This document shows, in pieces, positions 251-61,117 of a stretch of 64,000 bases of DNA. Every line of letters begins with the position of its first letter. Positions within the stretch are counted from its first letter, which is position 1. The stretch lies in contig NC_043000.1 of NCBI RefSeq assembly GCF_006345805.1, forward strand, positions 106,826,001 through 106,890,000. Reading direction: 5' to 3'. A program made the position numbers and the translations under genes. The notes beneath the pieces are model-generated. The model was given only the letters and a program-made list of their open reading frames with translations, made no database searches and had not been told where the DNA came from. The DNA is from Octopus sinensis. Its lineage: Eukaryota.

Positions 251-396
251 ATTATTTACATTATTTACATTTGACAGATATTTGTCCTCATCTTGTTTGT
301 TGTTAACACAACGTTTCGGCTTATATACTCTCCAGCCTTCATCAGGTGTCTTGGGGAATGAAAATCCAATTCTCATTCCTAAAGTATTTTTCGATG

Positions 397-1228: not shown

Positions 1229-1648
1229 ATTCTTTATTGCCCACAAGGGACTAAACATAGAGGGACAAGTAAGGACAGACAAATGTATTAAGTTGATTAC
1301 ATCGACCCCAGTGCGTAACTGGTACTTATTTAATCGACCCCGAAAGGATGAAAGGCAAAGTTAACCTCGGCGGAATTTGAACTCAGAACGTAGCGACAGA
1401 CGAAACACCTATTTCTATTTCTTTAACACACACAAGGGGCTAAACACAGAGAGGACAAACAAGGACAGACAAACGGATTAAGTCGATTACATCGACCCCT
1501 GTGTGTAACTGGTACTTAATTTATCGACCCCGAAAGGATGAAAGGCAAAGTCGATCTCGGCGGAATTTGAGCTCAAAACGTAACGGCAGACGAAATACGG
1601 CTACGCATTTCGCCCGACGTGCTAACGATTCTGCCAGCTCGCCGCCTT
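1229..1648 (-). mobile_element. SINE family S1, one head plus two tandem body units
   Basis: Minus-strand head ggcggcgagctggcagaa...gagttcaaattcc; body gtcgactttgcctttcatcctttcggggtcgataaattaagtaccagtt occurs twice. Confidence 0.85.
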
Positions 1649-4400: not shown

Positions 4401-6723
4401 TTGAATTTCGCCGTTTAGTAATTAATTTATTATCGATTTTAAACATTTATTTATTCGGGGATAAAAAAATAGCGTGCGAGATTACACAAAATTCGTCACC
4501 TTCTCTACGCATGCAATAAAAAAGTCATTAAACTACTCAACAACAATACTGTGCATTATTTTTAACAAACACTTCACATTTATTGTTGAGTGGACTTAAA
4601 GCAATTAAAAATTATTATGCAATGCTAGCTTAAGTCGGCAAATTTCATCAGTTAAGCAGAATATTCCAACTTCAAAACTAAGTATTTGTGTCTTGGTTAT
4701 AAAATCACTATTTCTCCATTGACAAGTCTTAATGTTAGCGATTGACGTTGAAGTAAGACTGGGAGCCACTTAAAATAAAGAGAGATAATTTCTACTTAAT
4801 GTATTACTATTACAATCAAAACCATTTCTTTGTCCTTCTTCAAATGTACTTAAACTGCGTGCTACTCGAAATCTATTTGAAACACAAGTGTATGTGATTG
4901 TTATGGCTGCATCAATAATTGTTCTTGATAGATCAGTGATTCTAATGGAAATATTGCGATTGCTTTGGAAATAACAATGATTGTTATGATTTGCTTCGGA
5001 TCTCTAATCTTTCTACCAGCGCCACCAATAAAATAATCAGATGGGATGTATTTGGTTTCGATTTTTTAGTTGTTATTGCTAGAATCTCTTCTTTTTTTCT
5101 GATTTATCGACTGAATAGTAATCAAGCAAAAGTTATTGTCGAATTTATATATATAAAGTCTTGTTAAGTTTGTGTGTGCGTGCGCGAGCGCGCATATGCG
5201 TGTCTGTGTGTCAGAAGTCTATGTTGCATTACCTTCCTTCTGTGCGTATGGCTATGTATGTGAATATGTATGCATGTGTGACAACTACGTAATTGCTGAA
5301 TGTGTGCAAAACATTGGATATGTTGACGGTCGAATACAAAAGAGAGATAAAAAGATAAATGATAGAATTATTGGATGGAAATTTTATGTCCTACGTATGT
5401 ATATATATTTATGTTGAACTTATGTGGTGTTCATTGATTTAACAGCAATGAATATACTATGTACGCGCATAATCGACTCGCTAGAAATAGCAGAAAAATC
5501 CTCCTTCTTTCAAATGATACCCTATTGTCTTCAAAGTGGAAGGATATATTCGACACAGTAGTTCTAGATATAAGAATTCGGGAGTGTTACAGTTGAAATG
5601 TCCTTCAATCCCAAGTCTATGCAATCATACTGACATAAGATTTAAATACATTCACACTGACGCCTCTTAGATGTATAAAGTTTATTTGGCAAGGTAGAGA
5701 AAATTTGTGGTCCCTTGAAACTTAAATTGTTACAGAATTGGTTCTTTACTCTAAAAGGAGTAGATGGGACATTTGGTATTATGCAGTGGCATCCAGTTAG
5801 GTAGTTATAACTTTCAGTTCAAAATTTAGGCGCTTAGACACTTAAACTCATTTTCTGTATATCGGTTTAGTATTGTATGTCTATAACTTCATAGGTTACC
5901 TTTGTTGGTCCCCATGCTAAAATGGAATTTTTTTCTCGATGTTGTCTTTGTGTTAAGCTACCTTGCCAGAAAAAAATTGTTGGCAAATCCCTGGAAAAAT
6001 AGTAAGGAAATGCAGTAGAAGTGGAATTATATATTTTATAATTACAATCTGGAAACTATGAAGGGATTTTACAGTAAATTTTGCTTATACATTTATTCTG
6101 ATTAAACCGTTTATTAGAATAAACAGAGATACAAATCACGGAGATGTACTTGCATAGCAAGTGACCTGATCTGAGATCGGGTGCTGGAACGAAAACAATT
6201 GCAGCGTGGAAGGTGTTTATAAGCCATTTAAGACACAGTCAAAATCCGTTAGATTCACTTCAACATTTAAATTTAATTTGTCAAAATATTTTCGTCTAAC
6301 AGTTAGTTCATGATATATGTATGCGTGTATGTATGTATGTATGTATGTATGTATGTATGTATGTGTGTATGTATGTGCGTATGTATGTATGTGTAGATAC
6401 AAATATTTTCAAATAAACAATACTTTATTACATTGAATCTTGTAGCAGTGACAGCTGCAAGCTAATATGTTCATGGCATAATTTCTTATTCCCTTGTCAT
6501 TTCAATTTGTATTACACCACACACACACACACACACACACATACATATATATATATTAGTAAAGTTTATATGCCAACAGAATGTGGCAGTCCTATAAAGG
6601 ATGCTACTACTGTTATTTTAGCCCCAGGAAAACATCTTTTCCAGCTGACTATCAACACACAGTTTGTGACCGTATATCATTTGCAAGGGAGGTCATCGCT
6701 CTCATCTCTAGCCTTACGTGATA

Positions 6724-6768
6724 CTCACAGACCTAGGTTTCTGAGTGGTTACCTGTCCTCAGTGTGAG
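6724..6768 (-). ncRNA. Minimal hammerhead ribozyme (weak stem II)
   Basis: CTCACA CTGAGGA CAGGTAACCACTCA GAAAC CTAG GTC TGTGAG: 6-bp stem I, intact core, palindromic CTAG loop. Confidence 0.7.
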
Positions 6769-7984
6769 ACAACCACAAGCTAGTGACGGAAGCTCTCTCC
6801 ACTCGCAAATACTATATATTCTTTAAGCGACACACACACATAGATATATATATATATACGATGGGCTTCTTTCAGTTGCTGTCTACCACGTGTTTGGGAA
6901 GCAAGCTTCTTAAGCAGAAATAGGTTCTTATCAAGTGTGTGGGAAAACTGAAGTGGTTTCCCCCATTCGTTTGGAGATGTTTAGCAATAAATATCGCAGC
7001 AAAACACCCAGCTAAGGCTTACACTTTAACCAATGACAGTTAAATACAGATATGAGAGAAGCTACATATCAAAAAGACCCGGGATGTATGTCGTTCTATA
7101 TATTTTAGCATTCTATTGAAAATACCTGACTACGCATGGCAATTTTGACGTACTACGTAATTAGTTTATTTATTTATTTATTCATTTTTTTATGGATCTT
7201 GACTAGAACAGGCTTGTTCAAGTGCGGACAATAGAGAAGAGATATACTAGGTTATCATTTTAGCTAGAATCGTGTCAATCGAACAAGATATTTATTGATG
7301 AACAAGTAGGCGGAATAAAATTGAATGTTTTCAGTCGCTACAGATTAATGAAACTGTACTTCCTGAAGAGAAGACAAGCACAAAGTCACCATGTAAAAGT
7401 ATGGTTGATTAATTAAATTTATTAATTATTTACTAAACTTAAAAGTATAGATGATTATCAAAGCAATTGCTGATTTAGTAAACGTAAAAGAGTGGGTGAT
7501 TTATTAAATCTATTATTGTCTAAATTTAAAAGTATGTATAAAGTTTATCAATTATTAACTAAATATAGCAGATTTATTAAAACTAAAAATTAAAAAAAAC
7601 ACTTTATGTTCGTCATTGTAATTCATTCAATAACTGCAAAAAGCTCAGCTGCACCCAGTAATTATCACTATTAAGGTAATTGACAAAACAAAGCAAAACA
7701 AAATCAAGTCATAAGTTGTACAACAATAATCATCAAAACGTTTTTATTTCCACCAAAACGGCTTAACCACATTTAAAATATCAAGAATTTTTTCATGATG
7801 CGGCTTCACCTAAGTGTTAAAACTGAGATAATACACCTCTGACTGTCAAGTAAGACACCAGAATTTTATGTATATGTTCACTTCTTTAGCAGGAAACACA
7901 ATCAATATTATCTGATGTAATTTCAGCTATTCGGTTTCAATTTCATACCTGAATACACTGCAGGGGCAATGTTTACCTCGGTCT

Positions 7985-10802: not shown

Positions 10803-12320
10803 TTGTTAACAATTAACACGAAAAAATAAATAAATAGTTACCAGGGCAGCAAAAATCTCACAAGTAAAGGTGTTGTAACTCCTTGTTTATAAGGTAGAAA
10901 CTTCATGTTTACGTGTGAATATCGGAATAATATATGAATAAATAAATGGCTGTTCAATCTTAAAAATTTTCGAGTACAGTCATTCTTCAGGTGGTTTACA
11001 TTATCTAAAATATAATCAATATTTTAAGATATAAAATATAATAAATATAATAATTTATTATAATAAACTCTATTATCAAATATGATTATATCAAATCGAT
11101 TATAATGTAATATCAATTTTAATTTATAAGGCAGGAAACCCATAATCTAATATCAATATTAGTCTATATCTAATTACATAAATATTTAAAATGACTAATA
11201 TAAATAAATTATCAATGAAAATATATATATAAATATTATAATCAAGATCTAAAATAATCTCTATAAATATTGTAATAATAAAAACAATATAATTTAATTT
11301 TCCATATTTAAAGATGAAATAGCTTGTAAATTAATATTTAACATTATAGTCGATTTGGATATAATCATATTTGATAATAGAGTTATTATAAGTAAAATTA
11401 TTTATTATATATATTATTTATATCTTAAAAATATTGATTATATTTTAGATATGTAAACCACGGAGGAATGACTGTAACTCGAAAATTTTAAGAATTGAAC
11501 AGCCATGAAAACGATCGTAGGGTTATATTAATTATCTTTTAATAACTTTGATATATATTAAATAATATAAATTAATTAATTCTTATGTATTGGCGTAAGT
11601 TTTTCATTGTATGATGTGCCTAATAGTGGCTTTATCTCTAATTAAATAATATAATATTTTACTATAAAATTGGATTCAATCCTAAATCTAATTTTTTCCC
11701 TGTAAGTTTGGATTTATTCCCTAATATTTTATATGTATATATATATAAATTAAGAAATGGAGTTAAACGCTGGTGTTATTCAAATCTTTATACTTCCGAC
11801 AAATGTTTCGAAGAAAACATTGGTATGATTCTTGGGGGAATAAAATGATGTAAAACAATGTAATCATCTTGTCAGGAAAAAAGAAAAACAAGACACATCA
11901 ATAAACCATTTTAACCGAATGTGATTACAGCGTATACGATGAAGGTAAGGCTGGCAAGTTAGTTTTTAAAAACCGTTAATAGATTTTTCTCCTCCTTCCC
12001 TTTCTCTAAATTGCCTTTGACGTTAAATCTAGTAACGGTTTAAAAAAAAAAAACTTGCCAGCGTTCCCTTCATGATTATATTATTTTATATCATTTTTAT
12101 TCCCTCGCGAATAATACCAATGTTTTCTTTGTCGGCAGTATAAACATTTGAATAATACCTGCGTTTAACTCCATTTCTTAAATTATCTATGTTAAGCAAA
12201 AGCATTTCAATAAACCCTGGAATCTCTACCTTTATAAGTAGGCTGTAACATGCTTGGCACATATGTGAATTTTGCTACCCTGGTAACTATTTATTTACTT
12301 TTTCCGTGTTATTTGTAAAC
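10803..12320. mobile_element. Nested PLE-like fold-back elements
   Basis: Outer inverted repeat about 10805-10900 / 12225-12320; inner palindromes about 10947-11506 and 11748-12184; HHR motifs at about 11456-11525 (+, degenerate) and 11793-11880 (-, CTGACAA...GAAAC ATTT GTC). Confidence 0.7.
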
Positions 12321-12339: not shown

Positions 12340-12372
12340 ATACATCCATCCATCCATCCATCCATCCATCCA

Positions 12373-12407
<35 letters not shown>

Positions 12408-12648
12408 GTATGTATGTATACATATATATGTATGTATGTATACATATATATGTATGTATGTATACATATATATGTATGTATGTATACATATATATGTATG
12501 TATGTATACATATATATGTATGTATGTATACATATATATGTATGTATGTATACATATATATGTATGTATGTATATATATAGTATGTATGTATCTATGTAT
12601 GTATATATGTGTGTCTTATGTATATATGTATGTATGTATTATATATAT

Positions 12649-12687
<39 letters not shown>

Positions 12688-12888
12688 TATATATATATGT
12701 ATGTATTATATATATATGATGTATATATATATATTATATATATATATATGTATGTTATATATATATCTATATGCATGTATGTATGTATAATATATATATA
12801 TTTATATGTATGTTTATATATATATGTAGTTATGTAGGTATGATATATATATATATATATGTTATATATATATATATATATATGTATG

Positions 12889-12921
<33 letters not shown>

Positions 12922-12990
12922 GTATATATAATATGTATTTATGTATTATATATCTAGATATATATTTATGTCGATATATATTGTATGGAT

Positions 12991-13029
<39 letters not shown>

Positions 13030-13113
13030 TAGTATTGTATATATATATAATATATATATATATATAGATATATTATGTATATATCTATTATATATATATA
13101 TATGTATATATAG

Positions 13114-13150
<37 letters not shown>

Positions 13151-13169
13151 TATGTCTGATATAAATAGG

Positions 13170-13207
<38 letters not shown>

Positions 13208-13767
13208 ATAGATATATATAATATAATATATATATATATAGTATATAGTATAGAATATATATATATGTATATTATTATATATATATATGATATATAGATA
13301 TATAGATATATATTATATATAGATATATATATATAGATATATATATAGATATATAGATATATAATATAGTGTATATATATATATGTAGATATATATATAT
13401 ATGTATATAGATATATATGATAATATATTTATATATATATAATATATATATATATATATAGTATATATATATATATATATAGTATATATATATATAGATA
13501 TATATATAGGATATATGATATATATAGATATCTATATATAGATATATAGATATAGTATATATAATATATATGTATATAAGATATATATGTATAGTATATA
13601 TATATATATATATATATAGATACTATATATAGATATATATATATATATAATATATATATATGTATATAATATGTATATATATATATTATAATGTATATAT
13701 ATATATATGTATATATATATATAATATAGATGTATTATATAATATATGTATATATATATATATATTG

Positions 13768-13803
<36 letters not shown>

Positions 13804-13932
13804 CTATATAGATTATATATATGTATAAGTATATATATTATATGTAATATATGTATATATGTATAGATATATAGTATATATGGATATATATATATATATT
13901 ATATATATATAGTATTAGAGAATGTGATATAG

Positions 13933-13964
<32 letters not shown>

Positions 13965-14029
13965 ATATGTAATATATATATATATATATAATGTATAATG
14001 ATATATATAGATGTAGATATATAGATAGG

Positions 14030-14086
<57 letters not shown>

Positions 14087-14098
14087 TGTAGAATATAT

Positions 14099-14144
<46 letters not shown>

Positions 14145-14170
14145 TGTATATATATATATATATATATATC

Positions 14171-14226
<56 letters not shown>

Positions 14227-14276
14227 GTATATATAATATATATATATATATATATAATATGTATATATATTATATA

Positions 14277-14310
<34 letters not shown>

Positions 14311-14328
14311 GTATGTATATTAATTATC

Positions 14329-14381
<53 letters not shown>

Positions 14382-14870
14382 GTATATATATATATATATA
14401 GTATAATATATATATATATATATGTATGTATATATATATATGTATGTATGTATATATATATATATGTATTGTATGTATGTTATATATATATGTATGTATG
14501 TATGTATATATATATATATGTATGATGTATGTATATATATATATATGTATGTATGTATGTATGTATATATATATATGTATGTATTGTAGTATATTATATA
14601 GTATGTATGTATGTATATATATATATGTATGTATGTATGTATATATATATATGTAGTATGTATGTATATATATATATATATAGTATGTATGTATATATAT
14701 ATATTATATATGTATGTATATATATATAATATATATATATGTATGTATATATATATATATATATATATGTATGTAATATATATATATATATATAATGTAT
14801 GTATATATATATATATATGTATGTATGTATGTATATATATATATGTATGTATATATATATATATATATAT
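12340..14870. repeat. 2.5-kb TA-rich simple repeat tract including (CATC)n, (CATA)n and a 22-bp tandem unit at about 12397-12570
   Basis: Directly visible; unit tatacatatatatgtatgtatg. Confidence 0.95.
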
Positions 14871-14904
14871 ATTGATCAAATAAAAACATGATGCGAAGGA
14901 TTCA

Positions 14905-14981
14905 GCGGTACATATGTTTCGGGCTTTATTAGACAGATTTATAACAATGCATAATGTATGTCTGTGGCCTTCTTAAGCCGC
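14905..14981 (-). ncRNA. Hammerhead motif with one core substitution
   Basis: GCGG CTTAAGA AGGC...GCCC GAAAC ATAT GTA CCGC; G5 is changed to T, palindromic ATAT loop. Confidence 0.6.
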
Positions 14982-15382
14982 GCACAACAGCTTCCACAAG
15001 GACATGTGTTACATCAAAAATTCTTGGTTGGGGATGCAAATCCTCCCATTCGCGTACGACATAATGCGGCAGCAGCATAGAATTGAAGCGTCCATCTCTT
15101 TCTTCTGTCAAAAATTCTTGGTTGGGGATGCAAATCCTCCCATTCGCGTACGACATAATGCGGCAGCAGCATAGAATTGAAAAAGTGAAATCAAACAATG
15201 ATAAATATCAAAGTGAGTTATATATGGCAAAAATACGTCACGATGTGTTACCGCTACTGTATATAACTCACTTTGATATTTATCAGTTTTGATTTCACTT
15301 TTTCAATATCAGCGACAGTGGGCGCTGGAAAAGTATAAGTATTTGTGAAGGAAATCTAATTCTCGGCGACAACTATGATTGT

Positions 15383-15427
15383 CACACGCTGACGAGAGGT
15401 CAATACCTCGAAACTCGAGTCCGTGTG
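15383..15427 (+). ncRNA. Intact minimal type I hammerhead ribozyme
   Basis: CACACG CTGACGA GAGGT-CAAT-ACCTC GAAAC TCGA GTC CGTGTG: perfect 6-bp stem I, 5-bp stem II, full core, GUC site, palindromic TCGA loop. Confidence 0.9.
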
Positions 15428-15636
15428 TATCATAAGTTGAAGACGGGAAGGATGACTTCCCTTTGCAAATACTGACAGGACACAGATAGTGTGTCTATGG
15501 CCAGCTGGAGGAGTGTGTCCTCCTGGGCTAAAAACTACAGTAGCATCCACCCTTAGGGGTTAGCCATATTGAAATGGCAAAAATACGTCACGATGTGTTA
15601 CCGCTACTGTATATAACTCACTTTGATATTTATCAT

Positions 15637-15680
<44 letters not shown>

Positions 15681-18335: not shown

Positions 18336-18761
18336 AGACTTAACTTAGTTCGTACGCACACAGCCAACTGCAATAACAGCCTCTTCTTATCCCGATATAT
18401 TTCAGCAATATAGCCAGCAACACTTATCAAGAAACACCGTTTGATTAATCCCTTCTTCTCAAGAATTTATTGCGCATGTGACTCTGTCACCTATGTCCAT
18501 TTATGTTCGTTTACTCGCTAACACTCTCGCATATCCTTACTTTAACACTTCTATTTTGAAAATGGCTTGAGAGCTTGACAGGAAGCTAATTCAATTACTT
18601 CCCTTCCTTCAGTATCTGATACCTTTTATACTTACTTTCCTACAACAAGCAAACATACCGTTGAAGAATACTATCGTAAATCAAATTGAATTAACAGATT
18701 TTTCAAATGTCTATTTATTATGCATAAACGAATCTCTGCTCTAATTATACATACATGCATA

Positions 18762-19709: not shown

Positions 19710-20400
19710 GAATATGGCAAGTGGTTGACCCCAAAAGACTTCAAATTCGACTCATTGAACTTAAAAGCTTCCTTAAAAAACAGAATTACCCCTTAAAATT
19801 AATGATGGAATTATAAAAGCAATAAAACTGGACAGCGAAGGACACCTAAGTAAACATCAAAGAAAATACTTCTCCATTTATCAACAGCCATAATCTGAGA
19901 ACAGTCAACATATAAAAACAAGCCTACCAATACTTTTACAGAGCTCCAAAAAGAAAAATAATATGGTTATTGAAATATCATAAGAAACAGTAAACGCCAG
20001 CCAAAAGATCCTAAAAAAACACCTCACAAGGGCAAAATTCACATCAGAATTCTCCATGAGGGACTGTGGAGACAATAGAAGTCGAATATGTACCAACAAC
20101 AACTTCAAATATTTGGGCACTGGTTCCCTTATAAAATTTTAAGGTGGATTCTATTATACACCAAAATAATGCAGATATGAGCAAGACCACACAGAATCCA
20201 CAGACAACACATCACACTAAACGAATTACGTAAGATTCCACTGTGCAAGCATCTGGGAATATGTGGAATCAGCAGATCCCCGATCTTTCCTATGAACAAA
20301 TGCCCATTGGTTGATCCGAAGTACCAGGAGGTAATGGAACTATATTTTATAAAAACATTTTTTAGCTAAATTAAACGTATAAAATATATATTTACAAACA
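19710..20400 (+). pseudogene. Penelope-like element ORF remnant (RT thumb, Cys linker, part of GIY-YIG)
   Basis: Frameshifted translation RLIELKSFLKKQNYPLKL..GIIKA, PFINSHN, KRQPK.LKKHLTRAKF, CGDNRSRICT, IHRQHI, PLCKHLGICG, typical of the PLE C-terminal half. Confidence 0.65.
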
Positions 20401-20498
20401 CATGAGAAATCCTTTTTTAAAAAAATTGTTTCCCAGATGAACCAAATCAAATTATCACTGGATATTATTATTATTTTTATTATTATTATTATTATTAT

Positions 20499-20537
<39 letters not shown>

Positions 20538-28348: not shown

Positions 28349-28563
28349 TAGCATTAATAAATCTCCGAACGAGATGTAAACAGTTACACTTTACGTTATA
28401 TCTTAATAGTTATCGCCAAACTAATATGGCAATCCGTAAATATAGGACGAATGCTGCCGTTGATTAGCTCCAAGAGGTCATCGACTCTATGTGACACACG
28501 AAACTGTTTCTGTTATAACACTTGACAAGGGGAGGTCAGCTGCTTCCCCTTGCTGACCAGTCA

Positions 28564-28606
28564 TCTGCAGTCTAGTTTCAGGATATTTGCCCTTTATCAA
28601 TGCAGA
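28564..28606 (-). ncRNA. Degenerate hammerhead motif
   Basis: TCTGCA TTGATAA AGGGC-AAAT-ATCCT GAAAC TA GAC TGCAGA: stem I intact, core mutated. Confidence 0.5.
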
Positions 28607-31106
28607 AGAGCCGAACCCAGCAGGCGTCGCTCATGGAGGAAATTTAAACCCAAGCATGTCTTGTTGGCCACATTTGCCGCAGCTTCCAATGATATATTTA
28701 AGTCGATAGCAAAAAAAGTACATATTAAGCGGAAAACGTTTCCTTCGAATACTTAAGTCTTGGTCAGTTTTGCTTAAATTTTTGCTAATAGCTGAACTGG
28801 TCATTAGCATTTTAGCCATTGTCCTTCAGTTTCTAATTAAGCTCAGTTTCAGTGAAAACAATGATTTAAAATGTGTTGCACTTATTTTGACGTCTTCTGG
28901 GTAGCTTGTATATTATCGCTACATCGTTAGGTGTTAATTTGACTGAAGTGTGAAAGTTGTTAAATAGTAAAACAAGGAAAATAAATGCGAAATCATAGTG
29001 CAGAATTGTTTGTCTGCGAGCTCAACTGCTTGCTTATACAAAAGAAAACAAATTTAAAATGACAAATACAGTGTTAAACCCAATTAACAGTTGGTCGGCT
29101 AATTAGCTTTCTTATTAGCAAAAAGGTTAAAACGATAATTTAATTATTTACTAGATGTCTTCACAGAAAAGCGAAGCGACCGATTAAAAACATTGCAGCA
29201 TTTATTTCCTTCTGCTTTTCGACTTGAAAATCTGCCGTGGACTAGAGTCGACTCTATGGCATTTAGTTACAACCCCTTTCGCCCTTAGACCGAATCCGAG
29301 ATGAGAATTGAATTATATCGGTTTCTGATTGAGTCAGAAGACCAGCAAATTTCAGTAAAGTGTTAGCCAGCTCTAATACTTGAATGTCGCCAGCTTTACT
29401 ACTTGCGCTCGGGAGGAGAAAAAAGAAAACGTTGACCTTGATTGGTTGGATTTGAACTCAGAACGTAATAAGCCGAAAGAAATACCGCAAAGCATTTTGC
29501 CCGCTATTCTAATGAGTGTGTCACCTTACTACTTTATTTTGGTACAAGGTCATCAATTTTGAGAGGAGTGGAGTCAGCCGATACCTCTGATGCTATTACT
29601 CGGCTCATGCCATATTTTATCGATAGGGGAGTGCTGAAAACGCACAGAAACTTCTGAGGAATTTGAACGACAAACATAAAGATCTGGAAGAAAGCAAACA
29701 GTTTTGCCGGACCTTCGCCTTTGAGAAGGGAATTTTAGAAGTCTAAGACTCAGCCGTTCATCCACATATTGCCGAAGTAATAATTATCAGCAATGTACTG
29801 AAGTTGAGTCAATGACTTGTTGTATATCTTTCGCTTCGTTAAATTGCGAACGCTCTAATTTCGAGACTCAATAATTTACAAGAAGAAAACTTCGAGGTTA
29901 TTAACAATTCTAATTTGAGAAATATGCGAAATACATGACTTCCTAATGTATAAAAATTCTATAAATATTTTCAGACATCTAATTGTAATAAACAGTTAAG
30001 ATATATCCTTTGATAAAATTATAATAGTGGTACCCAAGGAGTCTCGATTTCAATACAAAATATAATAGAAAGTTACAATTATGACAGTTTCTTCTGAAAT
30101 TCTAAATAATCTGAAGCTTATGACGACTAATTAATCCAGTGAAAACTTTTCGAAGTTTCGAAAGATTATACCAAGATCACAGACTTGTTACCTTCATATA
30201 ATTTGATTCTACTATCATTTTCAATTTTCTAAGCTAATATTTAGTTCTTTCTTTCGTTATTCTTTCCTCTTGTTCTTTTTCTGTCTACAATTCTCTTGGA
30301 ATTTTTGTGGCGAGATTTTTATTTTAAGTATATCGTTTATGTTTGTTTTTTGGTATTGGTTCGTTTTAACCTTCCTTTTCTTGTATATCAGATTATTAAT
30401 TCGTAAATACTCTCGGATAATAATCATAAGTATGCATATATACATACATATATATGTGTATCTTAGCGTGTGTGTTTGTCTTCCACCACCGCTTGACAAC
30501 TGATGTTGGTGTGTTTAGCCTCCGTAACGTAGCAGTCCGGCGAAAAAAAAATCCGATAGAAAAATACCAGGCTTTAAAAAATAAGTACTGGGGGTGATTC
30601 GTTCGACTAAAATTCTTCTAAGCTTGTATACAGATACAAATATGTACGCACACATTTGTATACGCACACATATATACAGAAAGAGAAGAAATAATTATAT
30701 GTGTATGTGAAGAAATGTTGCTATGTATATGTATGTATACACGTATGTACACACTTATACCAAACAAAAAGGAATTAAAAATCCGAGCTGGTTTGTTAGC
30801 CAGCACTCCTGCGACTAGTGACTAACAGAGTGCATATGCGTAGAAAGATTATCTTTCAAAAGAAAACTATCCCTATAAACTGAAATTCCAACTTAAACAG
30901 ATTGGTCGTAGAGCATACACAAGCTCTTCTTTGCCATCTGATATGCAGTGATTCAATGAGTGGGCGTTGCAAACCTATAACCAGTAACGGTATTGTTCAC
31001 ATGATTTAAATACCTAATGCAATTGCAACGTGGAAGGTGTTTATAAACCATTTGAGAAACACACAAAAACCGTTAAATTCACTTTTTAATTTGTCGAAAT
31101 ATTTTC

Positions 31107-31898: not shown

Positions 31899-33559
31899 TT
31901 AAAATTGTATTTTCCAATTAAAAAAGTTCAGTACGGTGGTCTTCCACCAGCTCTTCAATATCTTCACTGTCGACATCCAAGCCCATAGTTTTTCCCACAG
32001 AGACATTATCATCAACAATAGTAATTTCCTCGACAGCAGCTTACATGTAGCTGTCTCAAACCCCTCAAAGTCTCGTTCTAGTACACAGTGTGGCCAAAGT
32101 TTCCTCCTCCATACTGAATTCATGGTTCTGTAACTCACTTGGTTCCATGCATTATCAATAAGATTAACATAATTCGGGATATTGAAATGATTTTTCCAAA
32201 ATTCTTCGAGAATTGGTTGAGTGTCATTAGTGACTTGAAAACACTTTCGAAACAGGGCTTTTGTGTAAAGTTTCTTAAAGTTTGCAACGACCTGTTGGTC
32301 CATTGGTTGTATTAGAGGCGTTGTGTTAGGTGGCAGGTATTTTACCCGAATAGAATCAAACTCTTCAACTAAGCCATCTTCCAAACCTGGAGGGTGAGCG
32401 GGAGCATTGCCTAACACGTGAAGGCATTTTGGTGGCAAGTTTTTTTTTCTTGCAGGTATTTTTTAACATTCGGGGCAAAAACTTCATGAATCCACTCAAT
32501 AAAAAATTGTCTGGTTACCCAAGCCCGCCACATAACAGACAATTTACTCTTCATGACATTGTTTCTTTTGAAAACCCTCGGATTCTCGGAATGGTAAACA
32601 AACAATAGAAACCTTGAAATCGCCACTTGCGTTGCCGTATAACAAAAGAGTGAGTCTATCTTTCATTGGCTTGTGCCATAGCAACGCTTTTTTCTCCTTT
32701 GTAATATAGGTCCTATTTGGCATTTGTTTCCAAAATAATCCTGTTTCATACCCCGCCGGGGGAGATAACCTCCTTCCTTTATCAAATCACTAAACTCAAT
32801 TACAAATTTCTCTGTCGCTTCTTTGTTTGAACTCGCCGCCTCTCCATGCCTAATAACACTATGTATTTCATTTCTTTTGTTAAATTTCTCGAACCAGCCT
32901 CGTTTTGAATTCAAAAGTGTCACTTTCAGCACTTGTATCAGGGGTTTTCTTTATTAGATCATTATAAATTTCTAGTGCTTTCTCACAAATAAATGCTTTA
33001 CTGATACTGTCACCTGCTAACTGTTTCTCGATTATAAAAATAAGCAATAACTTTTCCACTTCTTCGAGTATCTTTGGTCTTTGTTTATTAATAACGGTCA
33101 CTCCTTTTGCAACATCAGCTGCTTTTATCATTTCCTTATTTTTAGAACAGTAGATATTGTCGATTTAGGCACACCGTACTGCTCAACGAGATCTGACATA
33201 CGAACGCCATTTTCGTGTTTTGCGATGATTTCTTTCTTCACCGCAATTGTTTTTCTCTCAACCTTTCTTTTAACTTTACCAGTATCACTGCTAGCTTTCT
33301 TTGGGGCCATGACTAAGGGCTAAGGAAGAGACAAAAAGCACAGTACAAAAAAGTTGGAAAAGAAAAGCACAGCACAGCACACGAATGTATACAACACAGC
33401 GGTCGGCTCAGAAATTATTCCGTTCGGGTTAACTCGGTTCGGCAATGTTGTTCGAGTACCGACATTTTGTTCGATAACTGAGGCATTTTCATCTCGAATT
33501 TTCTGTTCGAAAACCGATTTGTTCGACATGTGAGACGTTCGAGAACCGAGGTTACTCTG
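31899..33559 (-). mobile_element. Tigger/pogo DNA transposon, frameshifted and lacking its 3' end (TIGD1-like transposase)
   Basis: ORF pieces: HTH psq (KKEIIAKHENG...STISTVLK), CENP-B HTH (EVEKLLLIFI...RGWFEKF...HGEAASS), DDE (YHSENPRVFK, NAPAHP, LPPNTTPLIQPMDQQVVANFKKLY); 5' TIR cagagtaacctcggttctcgaacg starts at 33559. Confidence 0.92.
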
Positions 33560-42684: not shown

Positions 42685-44324
42685 CCTTATATAATATATA
42701 TATATATATATATATATTATATAATATATATATTATTTATACATACTCGCGCGCATATACACATTCGTGTGCGTGCGTGTGTTTATGTATGTATGTATAT
42801 GCATATACACATCTATGCGTGAGTGTATAAAGAGAGAGAGTGACGAATAAAACAAAATGTTTCATGTCATTTATCCCATCTACATTTTCTCTCAATTCAC
42901 TGCTTCGTTATTTGTTCACTAAATGCTAATGCAAAGTTGAACATATAAAATAGCGATAAAAGAAATTACATATATGAGTAGAATATACGTGCCTATGATA
43001 AGATAAAAACATTTTTAAAAAAAATCAAATGCGCAAAAGAGTAATTCCAATTCTTGTTTCAATAAAGCCGAACAAAAGAAGGCGACAGAATACCAAAAAA
43101 CAAAACAATGCATATATGCAAATTGAGTTTGGTCTTTCAGACAATGAGTTAGAGTCAAGTAAACTAAAATAGATTTCCAGTTATTAGATGATAGAAGCTG
43201 GGAATATTAGTCTAGTGTGAAATTAAGGAAATGTCTAATGACATCACTGTAGGCATTATACAGTCACAAAATTACTTTGGAATCAGAAATTGGACTGGTA
43301 ATTGAAATATACATATATATACGCGCGTGTGTGTGTGTGTGTCTGTAACATACATATATATGTAGGTATATGTGTATGAATATATGTATATATAGATAGA
43401 GAGATAGATTGATAGATAGATAGATAACATACATATGTCTATATATGTATATATATTGTCCATTTGACGAACGCCTCCTTGCTGTGAAAAGTGAAAATTA
43501 AAATAATAGAAAAATGTTGAACTGTCTATGTCTGTTACTCTCTCACTCTTCTCTCTTTTCTTTCTCTTTCTCTCTCCCTCTCTCTTCTCTTTCTCTCTCT
43601 CTACTCTCTCTCTCTCTCCTTGTCTAGTATGTATGTATGTAAGCACGTATGTATTCGTGCTTATATGTATGTATGCCTACATGCATGTATTTATGTATAT
43701 GTGTACTTATGTTCATATTTATGTTTGTATGAATACAAATATTTATGTAAGTATGTGCGCATATATCTATGTACGCACATATGTATGTACTTACCTCATA
43801 CATATATACATACATGAATACAGTTAAGTTCGTTATTCTTTTCTGCTATTTCTTTAAATGATGATGATTTTTTTTTACGAATTATCTTCTTTACGAACTT
43901 GAAACTAAACTTTAACAGCGAATCAAGACATGTTTAATATATTATGTATTTATTCAATAATGGTCCAATTACATATTTATTTCAACGTGACAGATCTCGT
44001 CAGTGCAATTTTAAATGTATAGGCGAGTTATATTTGTGAAGTTAAAGAAATCAGATAACTCGAAAATGTTAATGTAGTTTCAAAGTTTCGGAAAGGTAAT
44101 AATCACAGATATACACATACACGCACACGTACATAACCACACACACGCAAAGACGTGTAAGAGCGGGCATGGCTTAAAGGTTGAGAATTTCGATTAGTAA
44201 ACACAAGGTTTCAGGTTCAATTTGTGCGCGAGTATCTTCTACTATAACCCCCGACTGACTAAGGCCCTGTGAATGAATTTGGTAAACGGAAACTAAGTGG
44301 AAGTAAGCTAGAAATATATGTAAG

Positions 44325-44383: not shown

Positions 44384-44697
44384 ATATTAGGGAATAAATC
44401 CAAATTTACAGGGTAAAAATCAGATTTTAGATTTAATCCAATTTTATAGTAAAATATTATATTATATTATATTAGAGACAAAACCACTATTATGCAAATC
44501 AAACAAAGAAAGACTTAAGCCAATACATAAAATAATTTATATAAATTAAAATTTAACAATTATAAATAACCACTACGATCGTTTCGTGTCAGCACATCTT
44601 TGAGACATTCTTCAGGTGGTTTCAAAACCTTCTTGGCGAGTTTTAAACTATGAACTCTTTGTTTGATTTGCATAATAGTGGTTTTGTCTCTAATATA

Positions 44698-49459: not shown

Positions 49460-49870
49460 TTTACAGGTTGGTAATATTTCATGGCATGTTAACAACGTGC
49501 AATCCGTTCAGTTAATTTATTAATGACTTTTTCCCCAGTAAGCAAGATTGATAGGGATTCTTCAGAGCACCATCCACAGGTCCAAGAATGTGTGTTGTAA
49601 GGTTTTGCATATTTTATAATTGACCATGAAATATCATATTTAATCCTGTCGGTTTTCAATTGGCATAGAAAATCCGCCAGTGATGTAACGTGTCTCTTGT
49701 TCCGTTTTCTAAAGCTAGAAGCATGATTTCTATATCGATTCTTGATAAAATCAGCCGTGACACTAACATGCACATAAGGGCCTCCCCTCGTGTGCACAGT
49801 GCATTTATAGACGATGTTACACGTCCTGCAAAGATTATCCAATGAGCAATTAAATAGGTGCAGGAGCTCG
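49460..49870 (-). pseudogene. Penelope-like GIY-YIG endonuclease remnant (Naiad-like)
   Basis: CSLDNLC..NIVYKCTV...KNRYRNHASSF...TSLA...LK...ISWSII..AKPY...CGWCSEE...NKLTE.IARC*H; YIG motif decayed and TAA within the terminal CxH. Confidence 0.75.
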
Positions 49871-49958
49871 TCTGTTTGACTGCGCGTCTGTCTAACTCTT
49901 TAAATCTCTAAATACAGAGAAGTTCATAAGTAAAGCTCCCAGCTTAAAACCTTATTAT

Positions 49959-59983: not shown

Positions 59984-60040
59984 GAGTTCTGATGATGATA
60001 AGAAATGTCGAGTTTGACTAATCTTGAAACGTACGTTCTC
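59984..60040 (+). ncRNA. Degenerate hammerhead motif
   Basis: GAGTT CTGATGA TGAT...ATCTT GAAAC GTAC GTT CTC; palindromic GTAC loop, stem I' shortened. Confidence 0.5.
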
Positions 60041-60384: not shown

Positions 60385-60388
<4 letters not shown>

Positions 60389-60620
60389 CGAGACAAAACC
60401 ACTATTTTAAAACCAAACAAGAAAAGACTTAATCAATACATAAAATTTTAATATAAATTATTTATTTAATTATATTTAAATTTTATGTATTGATTAAGTC
60501 TTTTTTGTTTGGTTTTAAAATAGTGGTTTTGTCTCGATTTTATATTAATAATATTTTACTATAAAATTGGATTTAACCCTAAATCTGATTTTTCCCTGTA
60601 ATTTTGGATTCATTCCCTAA

Positions 60621-60908: not shown

Positions 60909-61117
60909 TATACAATTATATGTTACATTACTCGATAGTCAAGATAAAACTCTGAGTTTCAGATGCCGAAGTGGGAATCCACGACATCTCTTCGGTTATC
61001 TGGCTATTTGAAAACCCTATTTTCAAATAGCCAGATAACCGAAGAGATGTCGTGGATTCCCACTTCGGCATCTGAAACTCAGAGTTTTATCTTGACTATC
61101 GAGTAATGTAACATATA

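What the first reader, a model, noticed from the sequence alone, without database searches (positions are those of the whole stretch)
15383..15560. Textbook-perfect hammerhead defining a three-copy family with covarying stems
Seen: 15383-15427 has a flawless core and stems. Its downstream flank (reverse complement atgctactgt...ttagccc.agga...agctg...atttgcaa.ggga.gtc) matches about 6600-6695 and, more weakly, 28450-28540, each with an HHR at the equivalent position. Stem I differs (CACACG/CGTGTG, CTCACA/TGTGAG, TCTGCA/TGCAGA) yet pairing is kept. Inference: compensatory change implies selection on ribozyme structure in the source elements.
Basis: partly seen in the sequence, partly recalled or inferred. 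Interest (0 to 1): 0.7.

Follow-up and report, generated by a model that had tools for sequence, protein, structure and literature searches.

The report
Hammerhead retrozyme with Penelope-type insertion scars
An intact hammerhead motif, predicted to be a self-cutting RNA, sits in a 350-base non-coding repeat of an animal genome (likely an octopus). The repeat is likely a 'retrozyme', a known kind of protein-free jumping element, and its ends suggest that Penelope-type retrotransposons copy it.

Summary
15383-15427(+) is an intact canonical type I hammerhead (Rfam RF00163, 32.2 bits, cut-off 34). Two relatives at 6724-6768(-) and 28564-28606(-) have homologous flanks (z 12-25), but both hammerheads are damaged. 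Stem I keeps 18 of 18 Watson-Crick pairs while 5 of 6 pairs change, so selection on pairing in the source elements is supported. Only three sequences were available and R-scape was not run.

It is a 350-nt, ORF-less, strongly self-paired unit, present here as 1.18 units. It has an inverted 5' piece and ends in (TA)n. Public contigs show a high-copy family, a closed 353-nt cycle, a recurrent 3' end followed by (TA)n, and inversion joints at varied places. This fits a non-LTR retrozyme, likely mobilised by Penelope-like elements (PLEs).

The copy is fused head-to-head, through microhomologies, to a repeat carrying a PLE-type minimal hammerhead. That may record one insertion in which a single reverse transcriptase switched between the two RNAs. 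Cleavage, expression and circularity are untested. Verdict: new member of a known class; I found no cephalopod retrozyme in print. Interest 0.4.

The parts
15383..15427 (+). Canonical type I hammerhead (copy c1): stem I 6 bp, core CTGACGA 15389-15395, stem II 4-5 bp with loop TCAATA, GAA, palindromic stem III ACTCGAGT 15413-15420, predicted cut after C15421
15374..15434 (+). Extended stem I: 3x1 internal loop (TGT 15380-15382 / T 15428) and distal 6-bp stem Ib; same loop and a paired stem Ib in c2
15224..15573 (+). 350-nt monomer of element A, 43% GC, no long ORF on the + strand, 64% paired as a predicted circle (z -5.7 to -6.7)
15574..15637 (+). Start of a second monomer (62-nt perfect repeat of 15224-15285). 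It holds the recurrent family 3' end at 15591 and a 46-nt extension ('tail') beyond it
15563..15578 (+). Hairpin GCCA...TGGC, with its 4 inner pairs invariant in all three copies, 13 nt upstream of the recurrent 3' end; candidate recognition element (inferred)
15176..15224 (-). Inverted, truncated piece of the same monomer (equivalent to 15260-15307), joined to the direct copy
14876..15111 (-). Element B: 3' part of a second high-copy repeat whose end abuts (TA)n here and in other copies
   Evidence: 66 contigs in X1 and 16 in X15 have TA-rich loose ends at 14878
14905..14981 (-). PLE-type minimal hammerhead in element B (4-bp stem I, extra base after A9, long stem II region, palindrome ACATATGT). 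The window copy departs from the core at 14975, where all laid depth in X1, X15 and X11 reads the canonical base
   Evidence: pattern as in PMC4209133 supplement
15108..15181 (-). 74-nt perfect duplicate of 15014-15087 (element B), with a 4-nt microhomology at its start and a 6-nt microhomology to the inverted A piece at its end
12372..14872 (.). 2.5-kb TA-rich array on the left of the composite
15637..15677 (.). (TA)n run on the right of the composite
6559..6829 (-). Copy c2, 5'-truncated. Hammerhead at 6724-6768 with intact core and broken stem II. Homology ends 13 nt after the hairpin (equivalent to 15591) and is followed by (TA)n
28402..28615 (-). Copy c3, most diverged. Hammerhead at 28564-28606 with U3-A8 core and U16.1 lost. 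(TA)n begins 70 nt after the hairpin

Best explanation
The hammerhead at 15383-15427 is the ribozyme motif of a 350-nt non-coding repeat that is likely a non-LTR retrozyme, a protein-free retroelement likely copied by the enzyme of Penelope-like elements (PLEs). Steps: (1) SHOWN: the monomer order X-Y-X has no ORF, is strongly self-paired in prediction, and closes into a 353-nt cycle in public contigs. (2) INFERRED: tandem master copies elsewhere are transcribed into multimers. (3) PREDICTED: two hammerheads pair through the 8-nt palindrome into a double hammerhead and cut after GUC, releasing monomers that a host ligase would circularise, as shown for coral, mussel and axolotl retrozymes. (4) INFERRED: a PLE RT/GIY-YIG protein nicks (TA)n and starts reverse transcription at an internal site, 13 nt past a conserved hairpin (15591) or about 46 nt further on. 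It reads across the cleavage site, so the template was a circle or an uncut multimer, and it leaves variable 5' truncation with an inverted piece. (5) SHOWN/INFERRED: this locus has a single hammerhead, so on its own it cannot release a monomer; c2 and c3 are older relatives whose ribozymes have decayed since insertion. The compensatory changes would come from selection on mobile master copies, not on these three loci.
For: Canonical core, stems and 3x1 loop. 62-nt perfect terminal repeat at 350-nt spacing and an inverted piece. Circular fold -113.2 kcal/mol, 0 of 100 shuffles as low in two runs; 11 of 12 control windows had z between -1.0 and +1.4, one had -3.8. Run X7 holds a 383-nt contig that reads 15532-15636, two letters, then 15288-15561: 353 nt plus a 30-nt overlap, 1 other letter and 2 gaps against c1. 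Three contigs of X11 overlap into the same cycle. 41 contigs of X1 stop at 15591 and go on into a TA-rich loose end (agreement 0.52), the point where c2's homology also ends. 9 of the 12 listed joints are inversion-type joints at different places (4 in X1, 5 in X15). All 3 copies have (TA)5+ within 16-70 nt of the hairpin, against 6.4% background for a 75-nt limit chosen afterwards. The cofold minimum of two copies is the double hammerhead (-46.3 vs 2 x -20.8 kcal/mol); the monomer's active fold lies 5.9 kcal/mol above its minimum. PLE hallmarks as described in PMC8557442 and internal RT starts as in PMC11167929. A GIY-YIG-like remnant lies in the same window.
Against: No tandem array with two or more hammerhead-bearing units was seen; this locus has 1.18 units. 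A closed contig can also arise from such 1.18-unit DNA copies, so it does not show a circular RNA. The 'RNA' label of X7 and X11 is the tool's guess. The Rfam score is 1.8 bits under the gathering score. Folding energies ignore tertiary contacts, and coral and mussel retrozyme hammerheads cleave as monomers (PMC7229834), so dimer dependence is uncertain. 8 of 9 predicted Xenopus retrozyme dimers did not cleave in vitro (bioRxiv 10.64898/2026.07.22.740005). No autonomous partner was tied to this family. c3's 3' extension is not significantly like c1's tail (57 of 1000 shuffles reach the score).
Confidence: 0.82

Rival explanations
1. The unit is only the pseudo-LTR of an autonomous PLE, and the three copies are 5'-truncated PLE ends.
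For: All insertion hallmarks are those of PLEs. PLE-type hammerheads occur elsewhere in the window. 321 loose ends were not shown and could include ORF junctions.
Against: The tail sequence X runs into Y both in the direct copy and in the inverted piece, with no ORF between X and X. Contigs close at 353 nt. The ribozyme is canonical (6-bp stem I, 3x1 loop, no extra base after A9), unlike the PLE minimal consensus.
Confidence: 0.08
2. The unit is mobilised by a LINE or by DNA-level satellite mechanisms, and sits next to (TA)n only because microsatellites are dense here.
For: The window has 240 (TA)5+ runs. LINEs also make 5' inversions by twin priming (PMC2837659, search listing only).
Against: A recurrent internal 3' end with no poly(A), a tail beyond it, a more-than-unit length, and TA abutment in tens of contigs. 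No short target-site duplication is visible. No tRNA gene was found in the window.
Confidence: 0.06
3. It is an endogenised viroid-like RNA replicon that replicates RNA-to-RNA, which would explain the fast turnover of stem I (5 of 6 pairs differ between c1 and c3 against about 26% in the aligned flank).
For: Size, self-pairing of both polarities (z -5.7 and -5.3) and the closed cycle. RNA-RNA steps have been proposed for such motifs (PMC4209133, PMC7229834).
Against: No ribozyme on the minus strand of the unit. The fold is branched, not rod-like. No relative in viral or metagenome collections. The many DNA copies explain the sequence without it.
Confidence: 0.03
4. The c1 hammerhead is a host-domesticated regulatory ribozyme conserved at this locus.
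For: It is flawless.
Against: It is flawless because it is young: about 1% from sequences in other runs, with 62-nt and 74-nt repeats still 100% identical. Older relatives decayed. No host exon was recognised nearby.
Confidence: 0.01

Closest known systems
Animal non-LTR retrozymes (Cervera & de la Pena 2020, PMC7229834), closest the Mytilus galloprovincialis 350-390-bp repeats
   Same: Canonical type I hammerhead with short palindromic helix III, monomer of 350/353 nt, GC under 50%, no ORF, highly self-paired predicted circle, coexisting PLE-type hammerheads.
   Different: No sequence comparison was possible (supplement unreadable). Tandem arrays, cleavage and circRNA are not shown here. The sections I read do not describe fixed internal 3' ends, tails, inverted 5' pieces or (TA)n targets for retrozymes.
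Vertebrate non-LTR retrozymes as non-autonomous PLE derivatives (Li, Clavereau & Pollet, bioRxiv 10.64898/2026.07.22.740005)
   Same: Dispersed monomers are common; PLE mobilisation is proposed.
   Different: Their evidence is co-occurrence and pLTR similarity in vertebrates. Here it is insertion anatomy in an invertebrate. By their definition (two consecutive units with a hammerhead) this locus is a monomer, not an active retrozyme.
Endonuclease-bearing Penelope-like elements (Neptune/Naiad/Penelope; PMC8557442, PMC11167929)
   Same: 5' truncation, inverted 5' copy, partial tandem, optional tail, (TA)n/AT-rich target, internal 3' ends.
   Different: No RT or GIY-YIG ORF in the unit; tail of 46 nt against the 30-40 bp described; canonical rather than minimal hammerhead.
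PLE minimal hammerheads (Cervera & de la Pena 2014, PMC4209133)
   Same: Element B's motif and the motif at 305-350 fit the consensus CUGANGAH-G...C-GAAAN-palindrome. c3's UUGAUAA core equals the U3-A8 variant of Schistosoma mansoni.
   Different: c1 itself lacks the extra base after A9 and has full stem I, a 3x1 loop and stem Ib.
Rfam Hammerhead_1 (RF00163)
   Same: All 45 model positions align.
   Different: 32.2 bits against a gathering score of 34.

Membership tests
Type I hammerhead ribozyme (c1) | Core C3 U4 G5 A6 N7 G8 A9, G12 A13 A14, A15.1-U16.1, H17 not G | tested here: met
Type I hammerhead ribozyme (c1) | Three helices, helix I open-ended, G10.1-C11.1 pair | tested here: met
   6/6, 4/4 and 2/2 pairs
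Type I hammerhead ribozyme (c1) | Rfam RF00163 gathering score | tested here: not met
   32.2 vs 34 bits, E 4.9e-6
Type I hammerhead ribozyme (c1) | Self-cleavage after H17 | not testable with these tools
   needs an in vitro assay
Type I hammerhead ribozyme (c2, c3) | Intact core and stems | tested here: not met
   c2 stem II 2 of 4 pairs; c3 lacks U16.1; no Rfam hammerhead match
Non-LTR retrozyme | Monomer 150-450 nt, GC under 50%, canonical type I hammerhead | tested here: met
   350 nt, 43% GC; 353 nt in X7
Non-LTR retrozyme | No protein-coding capacity | tested here: met
   stops in all three + frames; no ORF of 90 aa or more in the unit
Non-LTR retrozyme | Tandem arrays with two or more hammerhead-bearing units | tested here: inconclusive
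   1.18 units at this locus; closed contigs fit arrays, circles or 1.18-unit copies; no genome held
Non-LTR retrozyme | Highly self-paired predicted circle | tested here: met
   z -6.7 and -5.7, 0 of 100 shuffles each
Non-LTR retrozyme | Expressed as linear and circular RNA | not testable with these tools
   only contigs of runs whose RNA status is a guess
Autonomous Penelope-like element | RT plus GIY-YIG ORF between pseudo-LTRs | tested here: not met
   X-Y-X without ORF
PLE-type insertion (works like) | Inverted 5'-truncated copy, partial tandem, tail, microsatellite target | tested here: met
   features as listed in PMC8557442
PLE minimal hammerhead | Extra base between A9 and G10.1, short helix I, long helix II | tested here: not met
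   absent in c1; present in element B's motif
tRNA-derived SINE | tRNA-like head | tested here: not met
   ARAGORN found 0 genes in the window, a weak test for decayed heads; no tRNA match in Rfam for 14880-15636
Viroid-like circular replicon | Ribozymes in both polarities, rod-like fold | tested here: not met

The most novel reading that the evidence does not exclude
14876-15637 is one composite insertion into a single (TA)n array that caught a Penelope-type reverse transcriptase switching templates. On this reading, cDNA primed at the left TA end copied element B (PLE-type minimal hammerhead), jumped back 94 nt on B (4-nt microhomology), then jumped onto the retrozyme RNA (6-nt microhomology), while cDNA primed at the right TA end copied 1.18 retrozyme units. 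All left-hand pieces have the polarity this requires, both outer ends abut (TA)n, and both elements are roughly 1-2% from their relatives. It would be direct sequence evidence that retrozymes ride PLE machinery, in a high-copy, recently active family of a probable cephalopod. That B is the end of an autonomous PLE is not shown, and two adjacent independent insertions are not excluded.
Probability: 0.45. Interest if true: 0.6.

Novelty: new member of a known kind. Interest (0 to 1): 0.4.

Why it matters
The ribozyme and the element class are known. What is still open is which enzyme moves animal retrozymes: PLEs are called 'a strong candidate' (PMC7229834), and the 2026 preprint says the mobilisation mechanism remains to be worked out. 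This family shows the PLE set of insertion marks (internal fixed 3' end, tail, inverted 5' piece, TA target), a conserved hairpin next to the 3' end as a candidate recognition site, and a possible chimera with a PLE-type end. That makes the question testable with the existing in vitro PLE assay (PMC11167929). If the host is an octopus, my searches found no earlier cephalopod retrozyme report, and a 2026 Octopus vulgaris repeat annotation does not mention ribozymes in its main text.

Tried and rejected
No whole genome is held for this window, so copy number, arrays and the autonomous partner could not be mapped.

No RNA holder listed among the 20 holding runs; this says nothing on expression. 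X7 and X11 are 'RNA?' by guess. Contig depth (162-197 on element A vs 17-19 on element B in X11) was not used as a measure of expression.

Pattern scans for relatives: 0 hits in metagenome contigs; 0 and 1 hits in viral contigs. The one hit (L001) shows no further likeness by eye.

One search used c3 coordinates shifted by 8 nt. Its c3 rows and its covariation statistics were discarded and redone; its c1-only folding and the descriptor scan stand. The c3 flank included 8 nt of the ribozyme and is superseded.

MAFFT misregisters c3's 3' half by 2 nt, so RNAalifold's stem I counts were not used. A pair count on that alignment failed on a length slip and was not repeated; pairs were counted by coordinate instead.

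A 62-nt target-site duplication as the source of the terminal repeat was rejected, because part of the repeat runs on into the unit in the inverted piece and in contigs. The X11 'opposite strands' joint 15224/15609 is the monomer continuing, not an inversion.

The hammerhead-like motifs at 44568-44621 and 43967-44010 do not belong to the family (flank z -1.0 to 1.0). Homology of c3's extension to c1's tail is not significant. Upstream flanks: c1-c2 weak (3 of 500 shuffles), c3 none.

The miRNA matches over 15176-15307 are due to the inverted repeat. Element B's continuation seen in other copies was not found in the window (one match with three mismatches at about 27071, not followed), so A did not simply split B.

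Earlier scan notes: none by sequence or place.

Full report
Setting. The window is AT-rich, microsatellite-dense animal DNA. The 190- and 166-bp repeats at 1242-1595 and 2473-2793 look to me like a very common octopus repeat; that is recalled, comes from no call and was not tested. No whole genome is held.

1. The observation. 15383-15427(+) is a complete type I hammerhead: stem I CACACG/CGTGTG, core CTGACGA, stem II GAGG/CCTC with loop TCAATA, GAA, palindromic ACTCGAGT, C17 at 15421. Rfam RF00163 gives 32.2 bits (gathering 34; E 4.9e-6 in a 757-nt search). A strict descriptor finds 1 hit in the window and none in 100 locally shuffled windows. Stem I continues through a TGT/T internal loop into a second 6-bp helix (15374-15434). 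This is the canonical architecture, not the PLE minimal form (PMC4209133: parts 1-2 of 4 of the text; supplement file 2 part 2).

The relatives. c2 (6724-6768, minus) and c3 (28564-28606, minus) lie at the equivalent place upstream of homologous flanks: 67%, 74% and 72% identity over 126-149 aligned columns, z 24.7, 12.3 and 14.2, 0 of 500 shuffles each. A model from c1+c2 picks c3 at E 2e-4, the best of 4 non-training matches. Both are damaged. c2 has 2 of 4 stem II pairs, with both pairs next to the core broken. c3 has the U3-A8 core variant, which is described for Schistosoma and is not a lesion, but it has lost U16.1. Neither matches a hammerhead family in Rfam.

Covariation. Stem I pairs across c1/c2/c3 are C-G/C-G/T-A, A-T/T-A/C-G, C-G/C-G/T-A, A-T/A-T/G-C, C-G/C-G/C-G and G-C/A-T/A-T: 18 of 18 Watson-Crick, 5 of 6 varying. 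Given the observed numbers of changes, the chance of staying fully Watson-Crick is 0.009 (c1-c2), 0.0012 (c2-c3) and 0.0010 (c1-c3). In 200,000 neutral simulations on a star tree scaled by the flanks, 486 kept all 18 pairs, 15 did so with 2 or more varying pairs, and 0 with 5 or more. The palindrome is kept with a different centre (TCGA, CTAG), and stem Ib is 6/6 paired in c1 and c2 but only 4/6 in c3. The null is my own, local alignment overstates flank identity, and n is 3. Stem I differs far more than the flank does, which points to distinct source subfamilies.

2. c1 lies in a 350-nt unit (15224-15573) followed by a perfect repeat of its first 62 nt (15574-15635) and then (TA)n. It is preceded by an inverted piece of itself (15176-15224). 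The unit has 43% GC and stops in all + frames, and folds as a circle at -113.2 kcal/mol with 64% of bases paired; 0 of 100 shuffles were as stable in each of two runs, and 1 of 12 control windows reached z -3.8.

Twenty listed runs of 11 studies and 8 organism labels hold 58-69% of its sampled words. I laid 4 of them on 14876-15636. X1 and X15 gave 5,079 and 2,094 contigs on the stretch (elements A and B together), with summed depth over 15396-15603 of 3e5-1.4e6 in X1 against 23-68 for the listed single contigs. The tool warns that this is no copy number; it does indicate a high-copy family. X7 holds a 383-nt contig that closes on itself as a 353-nt monomer, with 1 other letter and 2 gaps against c1, plus a two-letter junction that matches the inverted piece rather than the direct copy. 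Three X11 contigs overlap into the same cycle. Such a cycle fits circles, tandem arrays or 1.18-unit copies alike, and the RNA status of these two runs is a guess.

Forty-one X1 contigs leave the unit at 15591 into a TA-rich loose end. c2's homology ends at the same point, 13 nt after a GCCA/TGGC hairpin whose 4 inner pairs are invariant in all three copies. c1 runs 46 nt further. Of 12 listed joints, 9 are inversion-type joints at different positions. Only the best-supported rows were shown (321 loose ends and 18 variant rows were not). All 3 copies have (TA)5+ within 16-70 nt of the hairpin, against 6.4% of background positions for a 75-nt limit set after the fact. Partial tandems, an inverted 5'-truncated copy, an optional 30-40-bp tail and (TA)n targets are the listed marks of PLE insertions (PMC8557442, passages). 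In the Anolis PLE the tail is the stretch between two internal RT start sites, and the hammerhead is dispensable for insertion in vitro (PMC11167929, passages and section 3 part 2).

3. Mechanism. Shown: anatomy, covariation, high copy number, closed monomer order, recurrent end. Predicted: the lone hammerhead's active fold is 5.9 kcal/mol above its minimum, whereas two copies have the double hammerhead with an 8-bp intermolecular stem III as their minimum (-46.3 vs -41.6 kcal/mol). These energies ignore tertiary contacts, and coral and mussel retrozymes cleave as monomers at about 0.8 and 0.1 per minute (PMC7229834, passages and sections 13, 14, 17). Inferred: tandem masters give multimeric RNA, cleavage and host ligation give circles, and a PLE protein reverse-transcribes from an internal site into nicked (TA)n. 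All three copies extend across the cleavage site, so their templates were circles or uncut multimers. This locus has one hammerhead and cannot by itself release a monomer. A GIY-YIG-like remnant at 49489-49899(-) has no Pfam match but scores 0.95-0.96 in the protein atlas, where one listed cluster carries GIY-YIG on 11% of members. It is a lead that PLE-type endonucleases exist in this genome and is not tied to this family.

4. The left neighbour. 14876-15111 is a second high-copy repeat (B) on the minus strand whose end abuts (TA)n in 66 X1 and 16 X15 contigs. It carries a PLE-type minimal hammerhead at 14905-14981 that departs from the core at one base in this copy. Between B and A lies a 74-nt perfect duplicate of B, bounded by 4-nt and 6-nt microhomologies. 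Read on the + strand, everything from 14876 to 15224 is antisense to hammerhead-sense RNA, and A's direct copy is antisense on the minus strand. That is what two cDNAs primed from the two sides of one TA target would give, the left one switching B to B to A. B's continuation was not found in the window. Against this reading: B is not shown to be an autonomous PLE, no listed contig spans the stretch, and adjacent independent insertions at a shared TA target remain possible. I give the single-event reading 0.45.

5. Comparison and novelty. It works like, and most likely is, a non-LTR retrozyme. Size, GC, ribozyme type, lack of ORF and self-pairing are met; tandem arrays are inconclusive; circRNA and cleavage could not be tested. 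It is not an autonomous PLE, though it inserts like one. PLE mobilisation of retrozymes is proposed but not shown (PMC7229834; PMC7761336, passages; bioRxiv 10.64898/2026.07.22.740005, parts 1-3 of 5, where only 1 of 9 tested dimers cleaved). Searches for 'octopus' with 'hammerhead ribozyme', 'retrozyme' with 'cephalopod' and hammerhead/octopus/retrozyme listed no report of a cephalopod retrozyme. The O. vulgaris repeat annotation (PMC13282606, part 1 of 3 and a term search) lists recently active Penelope-like families and has no 'ribozyme' in its main text. The supplement of PMC7229834 could not be read, one supplement file of PMC4209133 was not searched, and subscription papers are outside the library, so an earlier mention may exist. 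Lunse et al. 2017 I saw only as a reference.

6. Verdict. Real motif, sound covariation, a known class of element, with clear PLE-type insertion marks and a possible chimera worth a genome-wide check. Novelty: new member of a known kind. Interest 0.4.

Noticed in passing
window 305-350 (-): Intact PLE-type minimal hammerhead (CTGATGA, extra A, GGC...GCC, GAA, palindrome ACGT), 5-bp stem I, next to trinucleotide repeats.
   Followed up: partly
window 44568-44621 (-), arms about 44475-44521 and 44656-44690: Hammerhead-like motif with palindrome ACGATCGT inside a repeat with inverted arms; related arms at 11592-11648 and 60386-60542. Flank unrelated to the finding's family.
   Followed up: partly
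window 43967-44010 (-), 44025-44080 (+), 18388-18436 (-), 59991-60037 (+): Further loose hammerhead-descriptor matches, not tested against chance.
   Followed up: no
window 49489-49899 (-): Open stretch of 136 codons resembling a PLE GIY-YIG endonuclease C-terminus (recognised by eye; no Pfam match; atlas features 0.95-0.96, GIY-YIG on 11% of one cluster).
   Followed up: partly
window 31899-33164 (-): Broken DDE_1 transposase (E 3e-15) with a weak Tc5 helix-turn-helix match; likely a pogo/Tigger-type remnant.
   Followed up: partly
window 60933-61101: Near-perfect long hairpin that passes the Rfam mir-9 gathering score on both strands (63.2 and 62.6 vs 58.6 bits); more likely a palindromic repeat than a microRNA, untested.
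   Followed up: no
window 1242-1595, 2473-2793: Tandem copies of a 190/166-bp repeat that I recall as a very abundant octopus SINE-like element; the only basis for the host guess.
   Followed up: no
window 15422 onward, run X15: Summed contig depth rises 2.4-fold in the bin that starts at the cleavage site (64,021 to 155,364; 1.4-fold in X1). It could reflect 5' truncation at the cut or subfamily divergence.
   Followed up: no
window 20178-20527: A control window that folded unusually well as a circle (z -3.8).
   Followed up: no
window 6724-6768 (-): In c2 the changed stem II 3' strand (CTCAG) can pair with the core (CTGAG) in the predicted minimum fold, a possible blocking conformation or chance.
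   Followed up: no
runs X7 (organism label C) and X11 (label A): The monomer is within about 1% of c1 under two different organism labels: recent activity, close kin or labelling; not resolved.
   Followed up: no
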